Part shown: positions 38,942 through 52,764 of the stretch, in pieces
Position numbering within the stretch: the first letter of the stretch is position 1
How the letters are laid out: the number at the start of each line of letters is the position of its first letter
Assembly: GCA_037189525.1 (NCBI GenBank)
Contig: JBBCJC010000003.1
Coordinates: forward strand, 754,351 to 818,350
Direction: 5' to 3'
DNA: 64,000 nt
From: Gemmatimonadales bacterium
Lineage (GTDB): Bacteria; Gemmatimonadota; Gemmatimonadetes; Gemmatimonadales; GWC2-71-9
Notes under the pieces: model-generated
What the model was told of the DNA's origin: nothing
The model's database searches: none
What the model saw: the letters and a program-made list of their open reading frames with translations, nothing else
Program-made: the position numbers and the translations under genes

Positions 38942-41418
<2,477 letters not shown>

Positions 41419-41422
<4 letters not shown>

Positions 41423-42507
41423 GCTCCCTGCCCGCGTCGGACTTCCTCTTCCAACGTCCAGCGGACGAACTCCGCCCGACGGATTGCCATCTCTTCCTCA
41501 TCCAATAACCGGCCCGCCTTGGCATTCAAGTGGGCCGGCTGGCTGAACACCAGCAATTTGTTCAGCGCATACATTCCGACGTTTGGAATCACCTTGAGGC
41601 TCACACCGAGCCGCACGCCGGACAACAGGTTCATCGTTTCTTCGAAGCTCAGCGAGCGCGCATAGCGCAGCAAGCCGAACGCCCGCCAGCACTTGTCTTC
41701 GAGTACCGCCGGCGCATCACGCAAGAGCACCTGACGAGCCCGCTCCTCGACTCCGATCACGTGCTGCACGATCGTGCCCAGGTGCTCCAATAGCTCTCCC
41801 TCGCTCTTGCCCAAGGTGGTCTGGTTCGACAACTGAAAGAAGTTGCCGACCACCTCGCTGCCCTCTCCGTAGAGACCCCGGTACGTCAACCCGATCTTGG
41901 TGAGACCGTGCAACGTTTTGTTGATCTCCTTCGTCAGCACGAGCCCCGGCAGATGGATCAAGACCGATGCCCGGAGCCCCGTTCCGACGTTGGTAGGGCA
42001 CGAGGTAAGGTAACCGAACGCCGAATGAAATGCGAAGGCAAGTCGTTGCCCCAGTTCAGTGTCCAGCCCCTCGACCTCACGCCAGCAGGCCCCAAAATCC
42101 ACCCCCGAAGCGAGCACCTGGAGCCGCAGGTGATCTTCTTCGTTGACCATCACCGCCGCCCGATTCTGCAGCAACAATGCCCGGGTTGTTGTGATCGAAT
42201 TTCGGTCACCCAACCCTGCGAGCTCGCGGCTGATCAGATGCCGTTCGAGCAGGAGCCGATTGTCCCACTCCTCCAACTGGTCGGGTCGGACGACCAGGGC
42301 GTGACCCAGCCCGGTCGTGGTTCCGGCGGCCTGAATGACCTGGTCGAGCACCTCTCGCCGCTCCGCCGCGTCCATTCGCGCGCCGAATCGCCGATCCGCC
42401 AGGTTCCGCGCCAACCGGACGCGGGTTGAGAGGACCAGATGACTGGCTGGCCCACTCGCTTCGAGCCATCCGAGACCGCCATCGGGCAACAGATCGAGAT
42501 CGATCAT
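41419..42507 (-). CDS. mcsB: Protein arginine kinase McsB
   Basis: STRVRLARN, ERHLIS, VNEEDHLR, GYLTSCPTNVGTGLRASV, RGLYGEG and QLSNQTTLG. Confidence 0.94.
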
Positions 42508-43007
42508 TCCCGCTCCTTCAATCGGTCACGCAGCTCCGCAGCCAGCTCGAACTGTTCCTGCTCGATGGCGCGTTTGAGCCGCTCTCGCAGCCGGTCGATC
42601 GATTCGGCCTCGATTTCGCGCGCCGGCGTGCCCGGTGCGTGATAGGCCTTCCCCGTGTGATGCGCAGAACCGTGCAGGCGTCGCAACAACTCCCGCAGCG
42701 GCTCGCCGAAGGTGTCGTAACACTGTCCACAGCCGAGCCGGCCCGACTCGCGAAAGTCCTGGAGCGATCCGCCACACCCCGGGCAGACCGGGCTCTCGGC
42801 GGTAGCGTCGGATGCGGCCACCTCGGTTTCGAGGGAGAGCGCAGCCAGCAGTCCGCCGATCGGGGTGTCCTCCATCGTCGCGGGTGTCTGAATCCCCTTC
42901 TCCGCTGCGCACTGAGCGCAGAGCTGGACCGTCTCGACCTGTCCGCCGACGATCTGGGTCAGCTTGATGACCCCTTCGCGCTCGTGGCAGTAGCTGCACA
43001 GCGTCAT
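42504..43007 (-). CDS. mcsA: McsA (Zn-finger/UVR activator of McsB)
   Basis: Four CxxC motifs, GRLGC..CY..F and H.GK, plus a C-terminal UVR motif EQFELAAELRD. ATG at 43007. Confidence 0.92.
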   Translation of the reverse strand: MTLCSYCHEREGVIKLTQIVGGQVETVQLCAQCAAEKGIQTPATMEDTPIGGLLAALSLETEVAASDATAESPVCPGCGGSLQDFRESGRLGCGQCYDTFGEPLRELLRRLHGSAHHTGKAYHAPGTPAREIEAESIDRLRERLKRAIEQEQFELAAELRDRLKERE

Positions 43008-46508: not shown

Positions 46509-47609
46509 GCCGCCGATCCTCCGAACCGCTTGAGATAGATATGAATGAACTCGTCCAGATCACCGTCCATGACGCCCTGGACATCGCTCACCTTGAGTTC
46601 GGTCCGATGATCGTTGACCATGGTGTACGGCTGAAAGACATACGACCGGATCTGATTGCCCCAGGAGATATCCGTCTTGGTCGCTTCCACCTTGGCCTTC
46701 TCCGCTTCCTGCTCCTCGAGCTTCCGCTGATACAACGCGGCGCGCAGCATCTTCATGGCCGTTTCCTTGTTCTTGTGCTGGCTGCGCTCCTGCTGGCACG
46801 ACACCACGATTTTGGTCGGCATGTGGGTCAGGCGGACGGCCGACGACGTTTTGTTGACGTGCTGCCCGCCTGCGCCGGACGCGCGGAAGACATCCATCTT
46901 GATGTCTTCATCGCGCAGGTCGATATCGATGGTATCGTCGATATCCGGATAGACGAAGACCGACGCAAACGAGGTGTGCCGCCGCGCCTGCGAATCGAAC
47001 GGCGAGATCCGCACCAGGCGATGCACTCCCTTTTCCGCCTTGAGAAAGCCGTAGGCGTAGTCGCCCTCGATTTCGAGCGACGCGGAGGTAATCCCCGCTT
47101 CCTCGCCCGGTTCGAGATCGAGCACTTTGACCCGATAGCCGTGCTGCTCGGCCCAGCGACGATACATCCGGGTCAGCATCTCCGCCCAGTCCTGCGACTC
47201 GGTCCCGCCCGCTCCCGGATGGATGGTGAGCAGCGCGTTCCGCATGTCATCCGGACCCTGCAGCATCGACTTGAGTTCGAATGCCGCGACCGCCTTTTCC
47301 AGTCGGTCGACTTCGTGGCCGAGTTCCTCGGTCAGGCCTTCATCCGGCTCGACCTCGAGGAGTTCCTCCAGGCCCTTGGCATCCGTCAGGCGCTGCGCAA
47401 TCTCGCTGCCCGGCGTCAGCCAGCCCTTGAGCGCCTTGACCTCCTGAACGACCTCGCGCGCCCGTTCCTGGTTGGACCAGAATCCCGGACCGAGCTGCTC
47501 ACCTTCCAGTACTTCCAACCGCCGTGCTTTGCCAGGCAAGTCAAAGAAAGTCTCGCAGTTCGGTGGCGCGACGGTCGAGCGCGGCGAGACGATCGGTGAG
47601 ATTCGACAT
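46505..47609 (-). CDS. prfB: Peptide chain release factor 2 with programmed +1 frameshift: join(47544..47609, 46505..47542)
   Basis: ATG 47609 (GGAAAGGA RBS) gives MSNLTDRLAALDRRATELRDFL, ending at CTT-TGA-C. The +1 frame continues DLPGK... and contains the SPF and GGQ motifs. Confidence 0.96.
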
Positions 47610-47711
47610 CTGGCAATTCCTTTCCCATTCATGGAAACGATCGAGCCGACCATCGAGAGTTTCGAAGGTCGGCTCATCCGTCACAATATAGCCGGGAAAC
47701 CCCGGCCTCTC

Positions 47712-48713
47712 CTATGGGAAAAGCGCCTGTCCGTCTGCCAGGATTTCGTTCAGCGCCTCATGGAAATACGGCGTCGACTCGGCCAGTTCGCGACCGACCT
47801 GATCGATGTACTCCTCCCAGCTCTTCTTGATCTCCTCCTCGAAGAGCGACTTGAGCGTGTTGCGCTGCAACCCTTCGCGGCGCTTGGCGGGATGATACAC
47901 CACCATGTCGGAGATCAGGGCGCGAGCCAGCCGCCGCGCCTTGGCCGACGGATCCTGACTCATGAAGGGATTGACCCGGACCTTCCGCGCGCCCGCAGCC
48001 GGAGCCGCTGCTGAGGGCCGAGGCATGGCGGGAGCCGCTGCCGGAAAGGGCGTCGAGAGGGGCGGAACGGCCGCAGCGGGCGCCCGTGCGATGCTGCCCG
48101 GAACTGCGGGCGCTATCGGTGTCCGCGGGGCCGTGACCGGAGGCGCAATGGGCGGAAGCGCGGTATCCGAGACCGCGGCTGCCGGCTCGAACGGTCGCGT
48201 GGCGGGCGGAGTCCCACCCACTGCCGGCGGTGCCAGACTCGGACTCGTGACGACCGGCGGAACCGGCGGGAACTCCGCTGCCTTCGGCGCTGCTGCGACC
48301 GGCGCAGGCGGGGCGGATTCGACGACCGGTGGCACCACCGGAGCGACCGGCTCCGGCGGAAACTCGGGCCACGGCGCCGGGATCTCCGGCTCACGGGACC
48401 GACGCTCCTCGATGGCATCGGCGACCGCCGGGGCCGTGGTCCGGGCGTGCCAGTCGTCGAACGACTCTCCGAACGGCGAGGTCAGCGCCTCGTCGCGAGT
48501 CGAATCGACCCCGGCAGCAGCCTCAGCAGGCGTCGGCTCGGATACCGGTGCGGGCTTGGCAGCGACAGGTGCCGCCGCGGCCGGAACCAGTTCGGTCACC
48601 CGAACCCAGAAAATGCCGCTGCACACCGAACAGCGCGCCCGCACCCCGGCAGCCGGAACTTTGGCCGGGTCGACGCGGAAAACGGTCTGGCAGGATGTAC
48701 ACGTTGCGTTCAT
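47712..48713 (-). CDS. MJ0042-type zinc-ribbon protein with Pro/Ala-rich linker and helical C-terminal domain
   Basis: N-terminal CTSC...RCSVC, a long low-complexity P/A linker, and C-terminal ARRLARALISDMVVY...EEIKKSWEEY. Confidence 0.85.
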   Translation of the reverse strand: MNATCTSCQTVFRVDPAKVPAAGVRARCSVCSGIFWVRVTELVPAAAAPVAAKPAPVSEPTPAEAAAGVDSTRDEALTSPFGESFDDWHARTTAPAVADAIEERRSREPEIPAPWPEFPPEPVAPVVPPVVESAPPAPVAAAPKAAEFPPVPPVVTSPSLAPPAVGGTPPATRPFEPAAAVSDTALPPIAPPVTAPRTPIAPAVPGSIARAPAAAVPPLSTPFPAAAPAMPRPSAAAPAAGARKVRVNPFMSQDPSAKARRLARALISDMVVYHPAKRREGLQRNTLKSLFEEEIKKSWEEYIDQVGRELAESTPYFHEALNEILADGQALFP

Positions 48714-48722
48714 ACGGAGCCT

Positions 48723-49688
48723 CTACCGCCCGGCGCGGTCGTCGCCGGTCCGGGTCTGACGACGGTCGACCACGAAGACCGATCCGGGCAGCGTTTTGGC
48801 ATAGCTCTTCATCTCGGTCGCCAGTTCGCTGACCTCCGCCGGGTGCGCAAAGGAACGATGGCGATTGGTGACGATCCCGACCGAGAGGGTCATCAACGGC
48901 ACCCGGTGCAGTTGTCCCCGCCGGTCCTTGCCGAAGTAATACCCGGCCCGCCGGTCCTGTTCGTTGTACTGATAGGGCACCAGCGTATCGAAGACCGACA
49001 GGATCTCGGTACAGACCAAGCTAATCTCGGCCGCGGGGATGATGAAGATGAAGTCATCGCCCCCGATGTGGCCGACGAAGCCGTTCGGACCCAACACGCC
49101 TTTGACGACATCGTGGAGGATGCGCGAGAGCATGTAGATGACACGATCGCCGTCGTAGTAGCTGTAGCGGTCGTTGTACTCTTTGAAATGATCGAGGTCG
49201 GCGTAGCAGACCGCGAATTCCTGATCGTTCTCGAGCCGGCGGCGGATTTCCCGATCGATCTCCGGCGCGCCCGGCAGGCGGGTCGACGGATGGACCGACA
49301 CGTCGCGCTGGCTGCGCACGCGCAGGGCATCCAGCCGGGCCAGCTGCTCTTCCGGGGGGAAGACATCGGTCAGGATCTCATCGGCGCCGGCTGCGAACCA
49401 CTGCTGCATCTTGTCGGCCTGATGCTGCCCGCCGAGCACCAGAGCCGGCACGATGGCCGTGAACGAATCGGACTTGAGCCGGCGAATTAATTCGGTACCG
49501 ATGGTGCTGGTCGCGTCGCCGTCGACCAGCAGAATGCAAGGGTGTCCCCGCAAGATGATCGACTCGACCTGATCCGGTTCGTCGAGCACCTCTACCGGAA
49601 AACGCTGATCCGTGGCCCACCGGCGGACCAGATCAGGTACCGGTCGCCCGACCGGCCCGAAGTAGAGAATGGTCGGGCGATTCCTCAC
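48723..49688 (-). CDS. Receiver-like domain + GGDEF-family diguanylate cyclase (GGDDF variant)
   Basis: YADLDHFKEYND and GHIGGDDF. The N-terminal receiver-like fold (ILLVD, AGADE) lacks the usual acidic pair. Confidence 0.85.
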   Translation of the reverse strand: MRNRPTILYFGPVGRPVPDLVRRWATDQRFPVEVLDEPDQVESIILRGHPCILLVDGDATSTIGTELIRRLKSDSFTAIVPALVLGGQHQADKMQQWFAAGADEILTDVFPPEEQLARLDALRVRSQRDVSVHPSTRLPGAPEIDREIRRRLENDQEFAVCYADLDHFKEYNDRYSYYDGDRVIYMLSRILHDVVKGVLGPNGFVGHIGGDDFIFIIPAAEISLVCTEILSVFDTLVPYQYNEQDRRAGYYFGKDRRGQLHRVPLMTLSVGIVTNRHRSFAHPAEVSELATEMKSYAKTLPGSVFVVDRRQTRTGDDRAGR

Positions 49689-49746
49689 CAGGTCACATCC
49701 CGTAAGAGGTTACAAATGGGCAACTTAGGAGCGTTCGACCCGACTG

Positions 49747-51573
49747 TCAAATGAACAGCGCCGCCACCGCGACCACGGCGTAGAGCGCGACCAGCTGCAC
49801 CCCCCGGAACCACCCCGCCTCCTCTTCCGAGGAAACCACCGTCAGGGCGCCGGCAGCCACCAGCAGGCCCAACAGCTCCACCCTGCCCAGAACAAGACTC
49901 ATTCCCGATCCGAGCCCCGCCCCGACCGCGACCGCCAGCGGGGCCAGAACGAGGGCTCCCTGGACCGCCGCGCCCCAGCCTCCCTGAAATGCCAGGTCGA
50001 CCCGGCCACGCCGCGCCGCGCTCAACGCCGGAGCCCGCTCCGCCACCGCCGTCACGAGCGGGATCAGCACGAACGCCAGGAGACCGAACGGAACGCCCCG
50101 GGCGGTCACCGCCGGAAGGGCGCCGACCAGCAGGCCGGCGCTCGCCACCAGCCCGCCCAGCGCCAGCACCAGCAGCCCGATGGCCGTGCCCGGCCCCCAC
50201 GGCGGGGCAACCGGGGTATGCTCTCCCCGCCCGAACAGCGCCGTGCGGGTCCTCCGGGCATGCCAGATGGCGGCCAGATAGGTCAGCAGCAAGACCGGCG
50301 CAATCCCGAAGGACGGATCGGCGGAGGTCGTGGCCGGATCGGCGAGACGCACGAAGAGCGTTGCGGCCGCGAGTCCCATCAGGGCCAGCGCCAGCGTCGG
50401 ACCATTGGGCCGCTGCAACGTGCGGTTGGTCCGCATCGAGGGATCGACACCGGCGACGAGCGATGCCAAGCCCGGGACCAGCAACGTGGTGGCCACGACA
50501 GCGCCCGCCAGAGCCCCCTGCGCCAGATCGGCGGCGCCCGCCACGAGCGCGACGATGACGACGACCAGGGTCGCAATATTGCCTAACGCTCCGTGGAGCA
50601 CGGCGCCGATGGTCGGGCCGGCGCGATCGGTCAGCGCCTCAGCCACGTATCCGGCGAGCCCCGCAAAGGCCGCCAGACCCACGGCCGCCGCGACCAGGAT
50701 GGCCAGCGGATCTCCTCCCGTGTACCAGAGACCCAGCGCCGCGGGCAATCCCAGAAAGAGCAGCCAACTCGGGCTGAACCGGAAGGTAGGCTGCGGGCGG
50801 GCCACCCGACGCGGGCCAACCGGCGCTGCCGCCGCTCGAGCCGATGCCGTTTGCCGATTCGATTCGGGGCGCTCCCGCGCCGGCCGGTCGGCCCGGTTCT
50901 CTCCGCGCGGCGACGAGCCCTTGGCCTCGTCGCGCCGGGCGTCCTCCCGTTTGGGGCGCTCCGCTTTTTCGCGCTTGGCTTCCGCTCGCCCTTCGGTATT
51001 GCCGTCCTCCCGCGGCTTCTTTTCCCGCGGTTCTCGGGGTGGACGCGGCTCGCGCGGTTCCCGACCCTGGCGTCCTTCGGCCGCGGGCTTGGCCGCCGGC
51101 TCCGCATTTCCAGGCGCTACCTCCGCAGCTTTCGGCGCCGGCGGCGGCTCGACCACCGGTTCCGGGAGGCCGAGTGCTGCGCGCAACGCCACGGGCGCGC
51201 GGGGATCGGCCTTGAGCAGCTGGGACATCCGTCCCTTCGGCTGGACCAGCAGCTGGCGCAACAAGTCCCGGTCCTCGACCGTTTCGCGGCCTTCCCGGGC
51301 GGCTTCCGCGCGGGCGGCTTCGACCACCCGCTCGGCAAAGCGGCTGAGCGCCGGTTCCGCCGACTCCCCTTCCGGCCCCTGCCGGAGCCCGGTCAGGAGT
51401 TCCTGACGCGCGCGGGCCGGTTCGATCCCGGCGCTGGCAAACAGTGTAGCCGCCAGGCTCGCATCATCGGCAAGCAGCGCAGCAAGCAGGTGTTCGGTTC
51501 CCACGAAGCCGTGGCGATGTTCCGCGGCAAGCCCTCTCGCGGTCGAGAGTGTCCGATCGACGACCTCCGTCAT
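49747..51573 (-). CDS. Clp N-terminal (Clp-R) domain fused to a CAX/ChaA-type cation/H+ exchanger domain
   Basis: N-terminal A...[15 protein letters not shown]lp-N repeats, a charged disordered linker, then about 10-11 TM segments matching CAX (AEAL..RAGPTIG..L...LGN, DLA, W..G.QL.ALY). ATG at 51573. Confidence 0.82.
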
Positions 51574-51737
51574 ACCGGACGCGCCTCGTCGATCAGCATC
51601 ACGGGAATGTCGTCTTCGACCGGGTAGCCCAGCTTGCACACATGGCAGATCAGTACCTGATCATCCGGCCGGTATTCGAGGTCGCCCTTGCACTTCGGGC
51701 AGACCAGGATCTCCAGCAATTCTGGCGCGAGACTCAT
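51570..51737 (-). CDS. Trm112/YcaR-family small protein (55 aa, absent from the ORF track)
   Basis: [22 protein letters not shown]...[27 protein letters not shown], with ATGA overlaps on both sides. Confidence 0.93.
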
Positions 51738-52606
51738 CGCGCGTCCCTCCGTTCATGAAGGTCCGGGAATCCCAGCCGCGTCAGCAGGTCCGCAGACTGC
51801 CGCCAGCGCGGCAGGACTTTGACCCAGGTTTCCAGATAGACCCGGCTCCCGAGCAACCCCTCCAGGCGCTCGCGAGCATGCTGACCGATGGCCTTGATGG
51901 TCCGCCCTTGCGTACCGATCAGGATTCGTTTCTGGGAGTCACGTTCGACGTACAAGGTCGCCCGAATGTACACGGGGTCCCGATTCTCCTGGAACTCCTC
52001 GACGTCGGCCGTGAACGCATACGGCAGCTCGTCCTCGAGGTACTGAAACGCCGCCTCTCGCAGATACTCGACGACGAAGAACCGGAGCGGCTGCGTGCCC
52101 AGATCGTCGGCCGGATACTCCCAGTCCCCTTCGGGCAGCAGGTCGGTGATCCGGTTGAGCAACTGATCGAGTCCGGTCCCCTGCGCGGCCGACACGAAGA
52201 CGCCGTCGTCGCTCACCTCGGCGCCGTCGGGTACCAGGTCCGCCTTGGTGTAGACCGTGATCTGCTTCCGAGGCACTTTGGCCTCCGGTGGCAGCAGGCT
52301 CGCGAGCGGCGGCGCCGGCGCTTCCGACGCAGGATGGAGATGGAGAACCACATCGGCCTGCGCAAGTTCCTTGAGGGCGACGCCGACCATCCGGGACTGC
52401 AGCAGATACGAAGGGTCGAGCAGGCCCGGGAGATCGTGGAAGGCAATCTGCGCCTCCCCTTCGGTGCGAATCCCCACCACCGGAAGGCGCGTCGCCTGCG
52501 CCTTCGGACTCACCATCGAGAGGGGTTCGCCGACCAGCGCGTTCATCAGGGATGATTTCCCGACATTGGGCCGACCCGCGAGGGCGACACGTCCAAATCG
52601 GGTCAT
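51734..52606 (-). CDS. era: GTPase Era
   Basis: [39 protein letters not shown] (KH domain) and YLETWVKV...W. ATG at 52606. Confidence 0.93.
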
Positions 52607-52764
52607 CGAACCATCAACGGAAGTCCGGTCGAAGCGCAAAGCGGCATAGCCTGGAAGAATAATCGAGCGATCGCCCCCCTGCAGTCGGGTCGGTTAGCTT
52701 GCAGGGCGTGACTTTCCGCGATGCGCTGGAACGCCACAGCGGCGTCCGCATTCGTACCCGGGCC

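What the first reader, a model, noticed from the sequence alone, without database searches (positions are those of the whole stretch)
49747..51573. Clp-N (phospho-arginine reader-type) domain fused to a degenerate Ca2+/H+ exchanger: candidate undescribed stress-sensing membrane system
Seen: one 608-aa ORF joins a ClpA/C-type N-terminal repeat domain ([14 protein letters not shown]; second repeat eroded to ETVEDRDLL), a long charged low-complexity linker and a full CAX-like membrane domain. The CAX ion-binding alpha repeats are altered. GNxxE reads GNIAT (Glu lost), GSILSN reads GAVVAT, GNAAEH reads TAVAER, and GSSxQ reads GAAVQ. The gene is ATGA-coupled to era-Trm112 and lies in the same co-directional run as mcsA-mcsB-clpC. 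Known: ClpC N-domains bind McsB-made phospho-arginine through the GTEH Thr/Glu plus a nearby Arg, and stand-alone Clp-N proteins (mycobacterial ClpC2) act as pArg sensors. Inference: this may be a pArg- or adaptor-gated ion exchanger, or a non-transporting membrane anchor that recruits pArg-tagged proteins. Caveat: the phosphate-binding Arg of the T-x-R motifs is not obviously kept (MTEVV, LSRFA), so pArg binding is uncertain.
Basis: partly seen in the sequence, partly recalled or inferred. Interest (0 to 1): 0.8.

Follow-up and report, generated by a model that had tools for sequence, protein, structure and literature searches.

The report
Protease-sensor domain on disabled calcium exchanger
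In one family of uncultured soil and sludge bacteria, the substrate-recognition domain of the ClpC protease is fused to a calcium/proton exchanger, and in this genome's lineage, as in at least one other, the exchanger has lost its ion-binding residues while the protease-derived domain is still preserved, which suggests a membrane tether rather than a pump.

Summary
The fusion is real: one 608-aa ORF with Clp_N, a disordered Arg-rich linker and a full CAX fold. At least 37 of 96 sampled genomes of the window's family carry it in one conserved slot; it was not seen in 104 other genomes of the phylum. The degenerate exchanger is not the family norm: 71 of 81 complete fusions keep canonical ion motifs. 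Degeneration is derived, in at least two independent clades, with a rate burst confined to the membrane domain (relative-rate 123:20, against 9:13 for Clp_N). Both domains stay under purifying selection. This copy lacks the YfkE E72 equivalent, whose mutation abolishes transport. Clp_N derives from ClpC. Phospho-arginine site 1 is gone; site 2 keeps its Glu (84/84) but rarely its Arg (6/84). mcsB co-occurrence says nothing: 200 of 201 phylum genomes have it. Best reading: a transport-dead CAX kept as a membrane tether for a ClpC-type docking domain of unknown ligand. Nine literature searches found no description.

The parts
49747..51573 (-). Clp_N-linker-CAX fusion gene, 608 aa
   Evidence: full-length homologues
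51169..51573 (-). ClpC-derived N-terminal double-repeat domain (residues 1-135), eight helices, second repeat eroded in sequence
   Evidence: Pfam Clp_N; pLDDT 85-97; Foldseek to ClpC NTDs; closer to own ClpC than own ClpB in 80 of 84 fusions
51490..51501 (-). GTEH (residues 25-28): Thr/Glu half of the pArg2-type pocket
   Evidence: E27 84/84, T or S at 26 71/84; E32 is the pArg2 determinant in PMC12583610
51337..51345 (-). S77-R78-F79: helix-5 N-cap; F79 replaces the ClpC Arg (R83 in Bacillus numbering, recalled)
   Evidence: alignment to own ClpC; Arg at this position in 6 of 84 fusions
50788..51168 (-). Disordered Arg/Glu/Pro-rich linker (residues 136-262), ending in a semi-conserved PxRxxxP element before the first membrane helix
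   Evidence: pLDDT under 50 for most of 151-250; Arg 18% in 84 linkers against 6% in 19 control linkers
49750..50787 (-). CAX-fold membrane domain (residues 263-608) with the ion site eroded
   Evidence: Foldseek VCX1, YfkE, CAX1; phmmer to the same; motif table
50569..50583 (-). alpha-1 repeat, GNIAT: Glu (YfkE E72) replaced by Thr335
   Evidence: E72A/E72Q inactive in PMC10227063
50035..50052 (-). alpha-2 repeat, TAVAER: Glu512 (YfkE E255) kept, Asn lost, His replaced by Arg
51570..51737 (-). Trm112-like gene, ATGA-coupled upstream (context)
51734..52639 (-). era GTPase (context; exact start uncertain)
48723..49688 (-). REC-GGDEF gene, the constant downstream neighbour (context)
38942..43004 (-). 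mcsA-mcsB-clpC (context; clpC is the likely donor of the Clp_N domain)

Best explanation
An ancestor of the family fused a duplicate of the ClpC N-terminal domain, through a flexible linker, to the CAX exchanger already present in the era-trm112-CAX-GGDEF slot. Most descendants are working Ca2+/H+ exchangers carrying this docking domain. In the window's sub-lineage the exchanger lost its ion site and no longer does Ca2+/H+ antiport, but the gene is kept because the Clp_N domain does a transport-independent job at the inner face of the membrane, with the old CAX fold as its anchor. The likeliest job is binding a protein ligand through the surviving pArg2-type pocket (a pArg-marked protein, or an acidic mimic of the kind ClpC adaptors use), holding it at the membrane or away from ClpC, as ClpC2 does in the cytosol. 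Shown: architecture, origin from ClpC, polarity of change, rate reversal, purifying selection. Inferred from YfkE mutants: loss of antiport (about 0.85). Inferred from rates: retention for Clp_N (about 0.65). Conjectured: the ligand is pArg (about 0.35).
For: Five of eight YfkE site residues are lost (E72, N99, N252, H256, S278; alignment, residue list), and E72A/E72Q abolish transport (PMC10227063). The degenerate clade nests inside its genus with a normal stem in the neighbour-gene tree (0.13) and the Clp_N tree (0.19) but a very long CAX stem (about 4; about 1). Relative-rate counts: CAX 123:20, 125:15, 114:19; Clp_N 9:13, 5:10, 11:11. dN(CAX)/dN(Clp_N) is 1.9-3.0 in three degenerate pairs and 0.34-0.82 in six intact pairs (from; one nearly identical intact pair left out). 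G000/G048 dN/dS: Clp_N 0.05 (bootstrap 0.02-0.09), CAX 0.18 (0.12-0.23). A second clade (P0036, P0187, P0188) lost both Glu independently with the same pattern: N-domain 79-86% identical, CAX 55-57%; rate counts 96:19 and 89:13 against 7:3 and 6:8. Clean deletion of the gene is tolerated in relatives (G269, G151, G121, G134, G043), so retention is not forced by the operon. No stand-alone Clp_N was found in 42 plain or empty loci. The pArg2 Thr/Glu pair is kept while its symmetry mate is lost (T108 0/84, E109 8/84), and the genome's own ClpB has lost the first pair, so the fold does not require it.
Against: No binding partner was identified and nothing was measured. The Clp_N domain is dispensable in other lineages: unfused CAX needs six changes on the neighbour-gene tree, and fused, plain and empty slots coexist in genus g24. 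A complete site (T/S, E, T/S, R) is present in only 3 of 84 fusions, and the Thr is Ala, Leu or Gly in 13 of 84. For the deeper G000/G270 pair, Clp_N dN/dS is 0.20 (0.13-0.30), well above most neighbour genes (0.02-0.09) and overlapping the CAX interval (0.23-0.37). CAX dN/dS in G000/G048 (0.18) is close to that of the disordered linker (0.22). E512, N332 and Q538 are invariant in all five members of the clade. Only three genomes give DNA for the rate tests, and dS is near saturation.
Confidence: 0.55

Rival explanations
1. Slow decay of a dispensable gene. Transport was lost and the ORF persists as an operon passenger; selection only keeps it in frame and foldable, to avoid polarity on prfB, lysS, lolE/D, clpC and bamA and to avoid a misfolded membrane protein.
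For: The slot is often empty or lacks Clp_N in relatives; 37 of 96 family genomes had no CAX match at that threshold. Partial erosion appears in single sequences P0192 and P0200. Only 47 of 117 family-conserved CAX sites survive in all five members. The gene is ATGA-coupled inside a housekeeping run.
Against: Clp_N dN/dS of 0.05 in G000/G048 equals that of prfB, lysS and mcsB (0.04-0.07). Clp_N shows no acceleration in either clade. No stop or frameshift in the three genomes at dS about 0.8-1.2. Clean deletions exist, so a useless gene can be removed.
Confidence: 0.2
2. Changed specificity. The rate burst remodelled the site into a different transporter or channel (monovalent cation, proton leak, or an anion such as phosphate) using E512, R513, N332 and Q538.
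For: These four residues are invariant in the five clade members. YfkE co-transports phosphate using H256 and Q281 (PMC10227063), and His is replaced here by Arg. The fold and helix pattern are intact.
Against: 47% of all CAX-domain sites are invariant among the five, so four kept residues are not striking. The domain still evolves two to three times faster than Clp_N after the burst. The second clade lost both Glu, with no shared replacement.
Confidence: 0.12
3. pArg- or adaptor-gated Ca2+/H+ exchanger. Clp_N binds a stress mark, possibly on its own Arg-rich linker, and switches transport. Plausible for the intact family members (about 0.25), unlikely for this copy.
For: 71 of 81 fusions have canonical motifs. 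Plant CAX1 is controlled by an N-terminal region (PMC13591097 abstract). Linkers are Arg-rich in all 84 (9-28%), and McsB prefers unfolded segments (PMC8370763 passages).
Against: This copy lacks the essential alpha-1 Glu. If Clp_N served only to gate transport it should decay once transport is lost, and it does not. One fused member has a very short linker (G194).
Confidence: 0.08
4. Assembly or annotation artefact.
For: The linker is low-complexity and GC-rich.
Against: 85 fusion sequences from many independent assemblies, the same slot in dozens of genomes, and two ESM Atlas clusters of 76 and 101 members with both domains.
Confidence: 0.01

Closest known systems
CAX Ca2+/H+ exchangers (B. 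subtilis YfkE 4KJS, yeast VCX1 4K1C, Arabidopsis CAX1 9VSA; TIGR00378)
   Same: Whole membrane fold (Foldseek E 6e-10 to 8e-7); intact relatives carry both GNxxE repeats.
   Different: N-terminal Clp_N domain and long linker; in this copy five of eight site residues, including the alpha-1 Glu, are lost; score below the TIGR00378 cut-off (106.7 against 211.15).
ClpC N-terminal domain (pArg and adaptor receptor; 5HBN)
   Same: Eight-helix double repeat; T31/E32/H33 equivalents kept; the fusion profile's next best hit in the genome is ClpC (121 bits; ClpB 59).
   Different: No AAA+ module; pArg1 (T7, R9, T105, E106 equivalents) lost; the pArg2 Arg mostly lost; tethered to a membrane protein.
Mycobacterial ClpC2 (non-proteolytic Clp_N pArg sensor and sponge)
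   Same: A Clp_N domain reused without an unfoldase; one of two pockets conserved, which suffices for about 5 uM pArg binding in ClpC2 (PMC13345244 passages).
   Different: ClpC2 is a soluble DNA-binding repressor whose pocket is formed at the helix-1 N-terminus; here the opposite pocket is the one partly kept, and binding is untested.
Plant CAX1 N-terminal regulatory region, proposed transport-independent module
   Same: A CAX whose N-terminal part is proposed to signal without transport (PMC13591097, abstract only).
   Different: A short peptide in plants, not a folded ClpC-derived domain; here transport-dead natural alleles have been fixed in whole clades.

Membership tests
CAX Ca2+/H+ exchanger | Two Na_Ca_ex repeats and the CAX membrane fold | tested here: met
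CAX Ca2+/H+ exchanger | GNxxE with Glu in alpha-1 (YfkE E72) | tested here: not met
   Thr335; met in 71 of 81 complete fusions
CAX Ca2+/H+ exchanger | GNxxEH in alpha-2 (YfkE N252, E255, H256) | tested here: not met
   Glu kept, Gly-Asn and His lost
CAX Ca2+/H+ exchanger | TIGR00378 curated cut-off | tested here: not met
   106.7 bits against 211.15
CAX Ca2+/H+ exchanger | Measured Ca2+/H+ antiport | not testable with these tools
   needs a vesicle assay
ClpC-type N-terminal domain | Clp_N profile and eight-helix double-repeat fold | tested here: met
pArg-reading Clp_N (ClpC, ClpC2) | pArg1 pocket (T7, R9, T105, E106) | tested here: not met
   5/84, 0/84, 0/84 and 8/84 across the fusions; none in P0001 by the alignment
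pArg-reading Clp_N (ClpC, ClpC2) | pArg2 pocket (T31, E32; T81 and R83 recalled from memory) | tested here: inconclusive
pArg-reading Clp_N (ClpC, ClpC2) | Measured pArg binding | not testable with these tools
   needs ITC or MST
McsAB-ClpC module component | Specific co-occurrence with mcsB | tested here: inconclusive
   mcsB in 200 of 201 genomes, so there is no contrast; plain and empty slots share the synteny
Hsp100/Clp ATPase | AAA+ domains | tested here: not met
   no AAA family hit

The most novel reading that the evidence does not exclude
A membrane-bound reader of arginine phosphorylation: the ClpC-derived domain captures McsB-marked proteins (or its own McsB-marked, Arg-rich linker) at the inner membrane. 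In most of the family this couples proteotoxic stress to Ca2+/H+ exchange; in at least two lineages the exchanger was discarded and the protein became a pure membrane-anchored pArg sponge or adaptor for ClpCP, in a diderm phylum where McsB is nearly universal.
Probability: 0.25. Interest if true: 0.85.

Novelty: new variant of a known kind. Interest (0 to 1): 0.6.

Why it matters
No description of a Clp_N domain on a secondary transporter was found in the searches run. The family offers a natural series in one genomic slot: plain exchanger, fused exchanger, fused transport-dead protein (at least twice) and empty slot. That makes it possible to test directly whether a CAX can carry a transport-independent function, an idea currently argued for plant CAX1, and whether ClpC-type pockets act at membranes. 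If pArg binding holds, it would link the McsB/ClpC stress code to the membrane and to calcium handling in Gemmatimonadota. If it fails, this remains an undescribed lineage-specific fusion with repeated loss of transport.

Tried and rejected
Docking of Clp_N on the CAX domain (intact member P0013, 70-row alignment): the complex job gave no answer (score 0.00, controls not run), which is not evidence either way. Single-chain models gave pTM 0.62 and 0.68; no contacts were reported, so nothing is concluded about inter-domain packing. Expression: no RNA holder listed. Genomic context of the second degenerate clade: both scans returned mostly ClpC N-domains and no locus of that clade, so its synteny is unverified. 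ClpS and MecA were not found in the genome; GDT1 was not found in 5 congeners. Promoter scan: no sigma-70-like site in 47000-54100. The ClpC/ClpB donor comparison used a wrong ClpB frame and was redone. The careful CAX tree did not finish; the quick tree misplaces the degenerate clade through long-branch attraction, so placement is taken from the neighbour-gene and Clp_N trees (FastTree only). YN00 failed for many pairs; NG86 values are quoted. Whether the Clp_N fusion predisposes to loss of transport was not tested statistically: 10 of 81 fusions against 3 of 128 unfused top hits lost an acidic residue, but both sets are biased by the queries and by kinship. The conserved PKGR loop of genus g1 looked like a new basic patch but is variable family-wide and its K-G is inherited from ClpC. 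Earlier findings of the scan: nothing shown. The primary pArg structure paper was not held, so the roles of T81 and R83 are recalled. Two other Clp_N papers were seen only as passages and no supplements were read; they may define the pocket more exactly.

Full report
Observation. The window encodes a 608-aa protein at 49747-51573 (-). Pfam finds Clp_N at 12-60 and two Na_Ca_ex stretches, both above cut-off. AlphaFold2 gives an eight-helix N-domain (residues 1-135, pLDDT 85-97), a disordered linker and a well-modelled membrane domain. Foldseek matches the two parts to VCX1, YfkE and CAX1 and to ClpC N-domains. It is the only Na_Ca_ex gene in this 98% complete genome; its degenerate congener G048 has a second, unlinked one and G270 does not.

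Distribution. A protein search returned 18 further proteins with both domains, named Gemmatimonadales where named. Profile and follow-up searches brought the set to 85 distinct sequences, and the ESM Atlas holds two automatically named clusters of 76 and 101 members. In 200 phylum genomes at least 90% complete, at least 37 of 96 of the window's family carry the fusion (my count, with loci checked). None of the 104 genomes of other families showed a match reaching the N-domain; four of them were checked directly with an N-domain profile and were negative. That search used a stricter first look, so the counts are floors. The tallies include one unpublished genome (G210); no claim depends on it alone.

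Context. The order era, trm112, slot, REC-GGDEF, zinc-ribbon protein, prfB, lysS, lolE, lolD, mcsA, mcsB, clpC, bamA is conserved across the family. The slot has four states: fused and intact, fused and degenerate, plain CAX, or no CAX. The sister family has a plain CAX next to the same GGDEF gene (G122, G124, G131, G171), so the plain exchanger is probably ancestral and Clp_N was added later. The donor is most likely ClpC: fusion N-domains score higher against the genome's ClpC than its ClpB in 80 of 84 cases. Plain CAX needs six changes on a neighbour-gene tree of 46 genomes, and fused, plain and empty slots coexist in genus g24, so Clp_N and the whole gene have been lost repeatedly. mcsB is in 200 of 201 phylum genomes and sits downstream of plain CAX genes as well. 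Co-occurrence therefore neither supports nor refutes a McsB link.

The degenerate exchanger is derived. Of 85 sequences, 4 were partial and dropped; 71 of the remaining 81 keep both canonical repeats and 10 have lost the alpha-1 Glu. Among 22 genomes of the window's genus, 12 have an intact fusion (three of them cut by contig ends), 3 are degenerate (G000, G048, G270), 1 has an empty slot (G269), 1 is frameshifted along with its neighbours, and 5 are uninformative. The three degenerate genomes form a clade inside the genus. On the Clp_N tree the ten altered sequences need four changes, at least three forced by well-supported branches: the window's clade of five, a clade of three in a distant lineage that lost both Glu, and two partly eroded single sequences.

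The ion site. Against YfkE (alignment; residues from passages of PMC10227063) this copy keeps N69, E255 and Q281 and loses E72, N99, N252, H256 and S278. In that paper E72A and E72Q have no transport activity. Loss of Ca2+/H+ antiport is therefore a strong inference, not a measurement.

Rates. In intact pairs the CAX domain is better conserved than Clp_N (dN ratio 0.34-0.82 in six pairs; the near-identical G260/G254 pair is left out). In the three degenerate pairs the order reverses (1.9-3.0). Relative-rate counts show a burst limited to the membrane domain in both clades: 123:20, 125:15, 114:19, 96:19 and 89:13 for CAX, against 9:13, 5:10, 11:11, 7:3 and 6:8 for Clp_N. Neither domain is neutral: for G000/G048, dN/dS is 0.05 for Clp_N and 0.18 for CAX; for G000/G270, 0.20 and 0.30. 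Of 18 listed strain differences inside the gene, 14 are synonymous (only 40 of 376 differences were shown). Against a strong reading: the deeper pair shows weaker Clp_N constraint than most neighbours, dS is near saturation, and only three genomes give DNA. Of 34 polar residues conserved in intact members, 13 survive in the first clade and 7 in the second, against 12 and 15 of 22 Gly/Pro, as expected if the fold is kept and the chemistry dropped.

The Clp_N pockets. PMC12583610 (section 9 and passages) names E32 (pArg2) and E106 (pArg1) as the crucial determinants and places T7 and R9 at or near pArg1. Across 84 fusions the pArg1 equivalents are gone (T7 5, R9 0, T105 0, E106 8). At pArg2 the Glu is invariant, the Thr is Thr or Ser in 71 and the helix-5 cap is Ser or Thr in 73, but the following Arg (R83 by my recollection) survives in 6 and the full set in 3. 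The asymmetry argues that this pocket is used: its symmetry mate decayed without loss of the predicted fold, and the genome's ClpB has lost the same Thr/Glu pair in repeat 1. One pocket suffices in ClpC2 (passages of PMC13345244). The missing Arg and the 13 sequences without the hydroxyl argue that pArg is not a universal ligand; ClpC pockets also take acidic residues of partners. The linker averages 18% Arg in 84 fusions against 6% in the linker of the neighbouring zinc-ribbon protein from 19 loci. McsB favours unfolded segments (passages of PMC8370763), so the linker is a possible substrate, but charge next to the membrane could explain it too.

Mechanism. The family is best described as a CAX exchanger carrying a ClpC-derived docking domain, each part able to persist without the other's function: several lineages dropped Clp_N and kept transport motifs, at least two dropped the motifs and kept Clp_N. 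No free-standing Clp_N was found in 42 plain or empty loci, which fits a need for the anchor. For the window's copy I favour a transport-dead membrane tether for a ligand-binding Clp_N (0.55) over slow decay (0.2), changed specificity (0.12) and a gated Ca2+/H+ exchanger (0.08). A cytoplasmic position for Clp_N is inferred from its ClpC origin and from the basic segment before the first helix.

Literature. Nine full-text searches returned no paper describing this fusion; three aimed directly at it returned nothing. Read: passages of PMC13345244, PMC10149685, PMC9604228, PMC10227063 and PMC8370763; passages and section 9 of PMC12583610; abstract and outline of PMC13591097. No supplements were read, and most subscription papers are outside the library. 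The architecture is present in automatic annotations.

Verdict. A real and apparently undescribed fusion, with repeated conversion to a probable non-transporting form. Both parts are known folds and the ligand is unproven: new variant of a known kind, interest 0.6.

Noticed in passing
window 47540-47546 (-): prfB carries the CTT TGA C programmed +1 frameshift site; the real N-terminus is in another frame from the long ORF that the ORF listing reports.
   Followed up: partly
phylum-wide; window 41419-43004: An McsB-type arginine kinase domain is present in 200 of 201 Gemmatimonadota genomes, and the window's ClpC keeps both pArg pockets; the paper search listed no paper on this system in the phylum among its top 15.
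   Followed up: partly
window 48723-49688: The REC-GGDEF gene is unusually conserved (98% among close relatives), fixed next to the slot across the order, and its signature reads GGDDF; P0070 carries Na_Ca_ex and GGDEF in one chain, possibly a read-through or assembly error.
   Followed up: no
L059, L067, L068, L078, L194 (between trm112 and the slot): Several family members have a conserved gene of about 340 aa here that looks like an outer-membrane barrel of PorV type (label recalled, not tested), often with a second unknown gene.
   Followed up: no
P0057: A Ser/Thr protein kinase domain fused N-terminally to an intact CAX: another regulatory-domain/CAX fusion, origin unknown.
   Followed up: no
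L008 1183-1794, L009 1174-1974, L010: The genome has three further Clp_N-containing ORFs outside ClpC and ClpB (open frames of 203, 268 and 1016 aa); the two short ones look like stand-alone Clp_N proteins.
   Followed up: partly
L053 (G086), G195, G236: Otherwise intact fusions split over two reading frames; assembly error or recent inactivation was not resolved.
   Followed up: no
window 52699-54009 (+): A 436-aa ORF divergent from era with no Pfam or NCBIfam hit, conserved upstream of era within the genus.
   Followed up: no
P0109: A 1762-aa protein made of twelve Clp_N repeats with no other Pfam domain.
   Followed up: no
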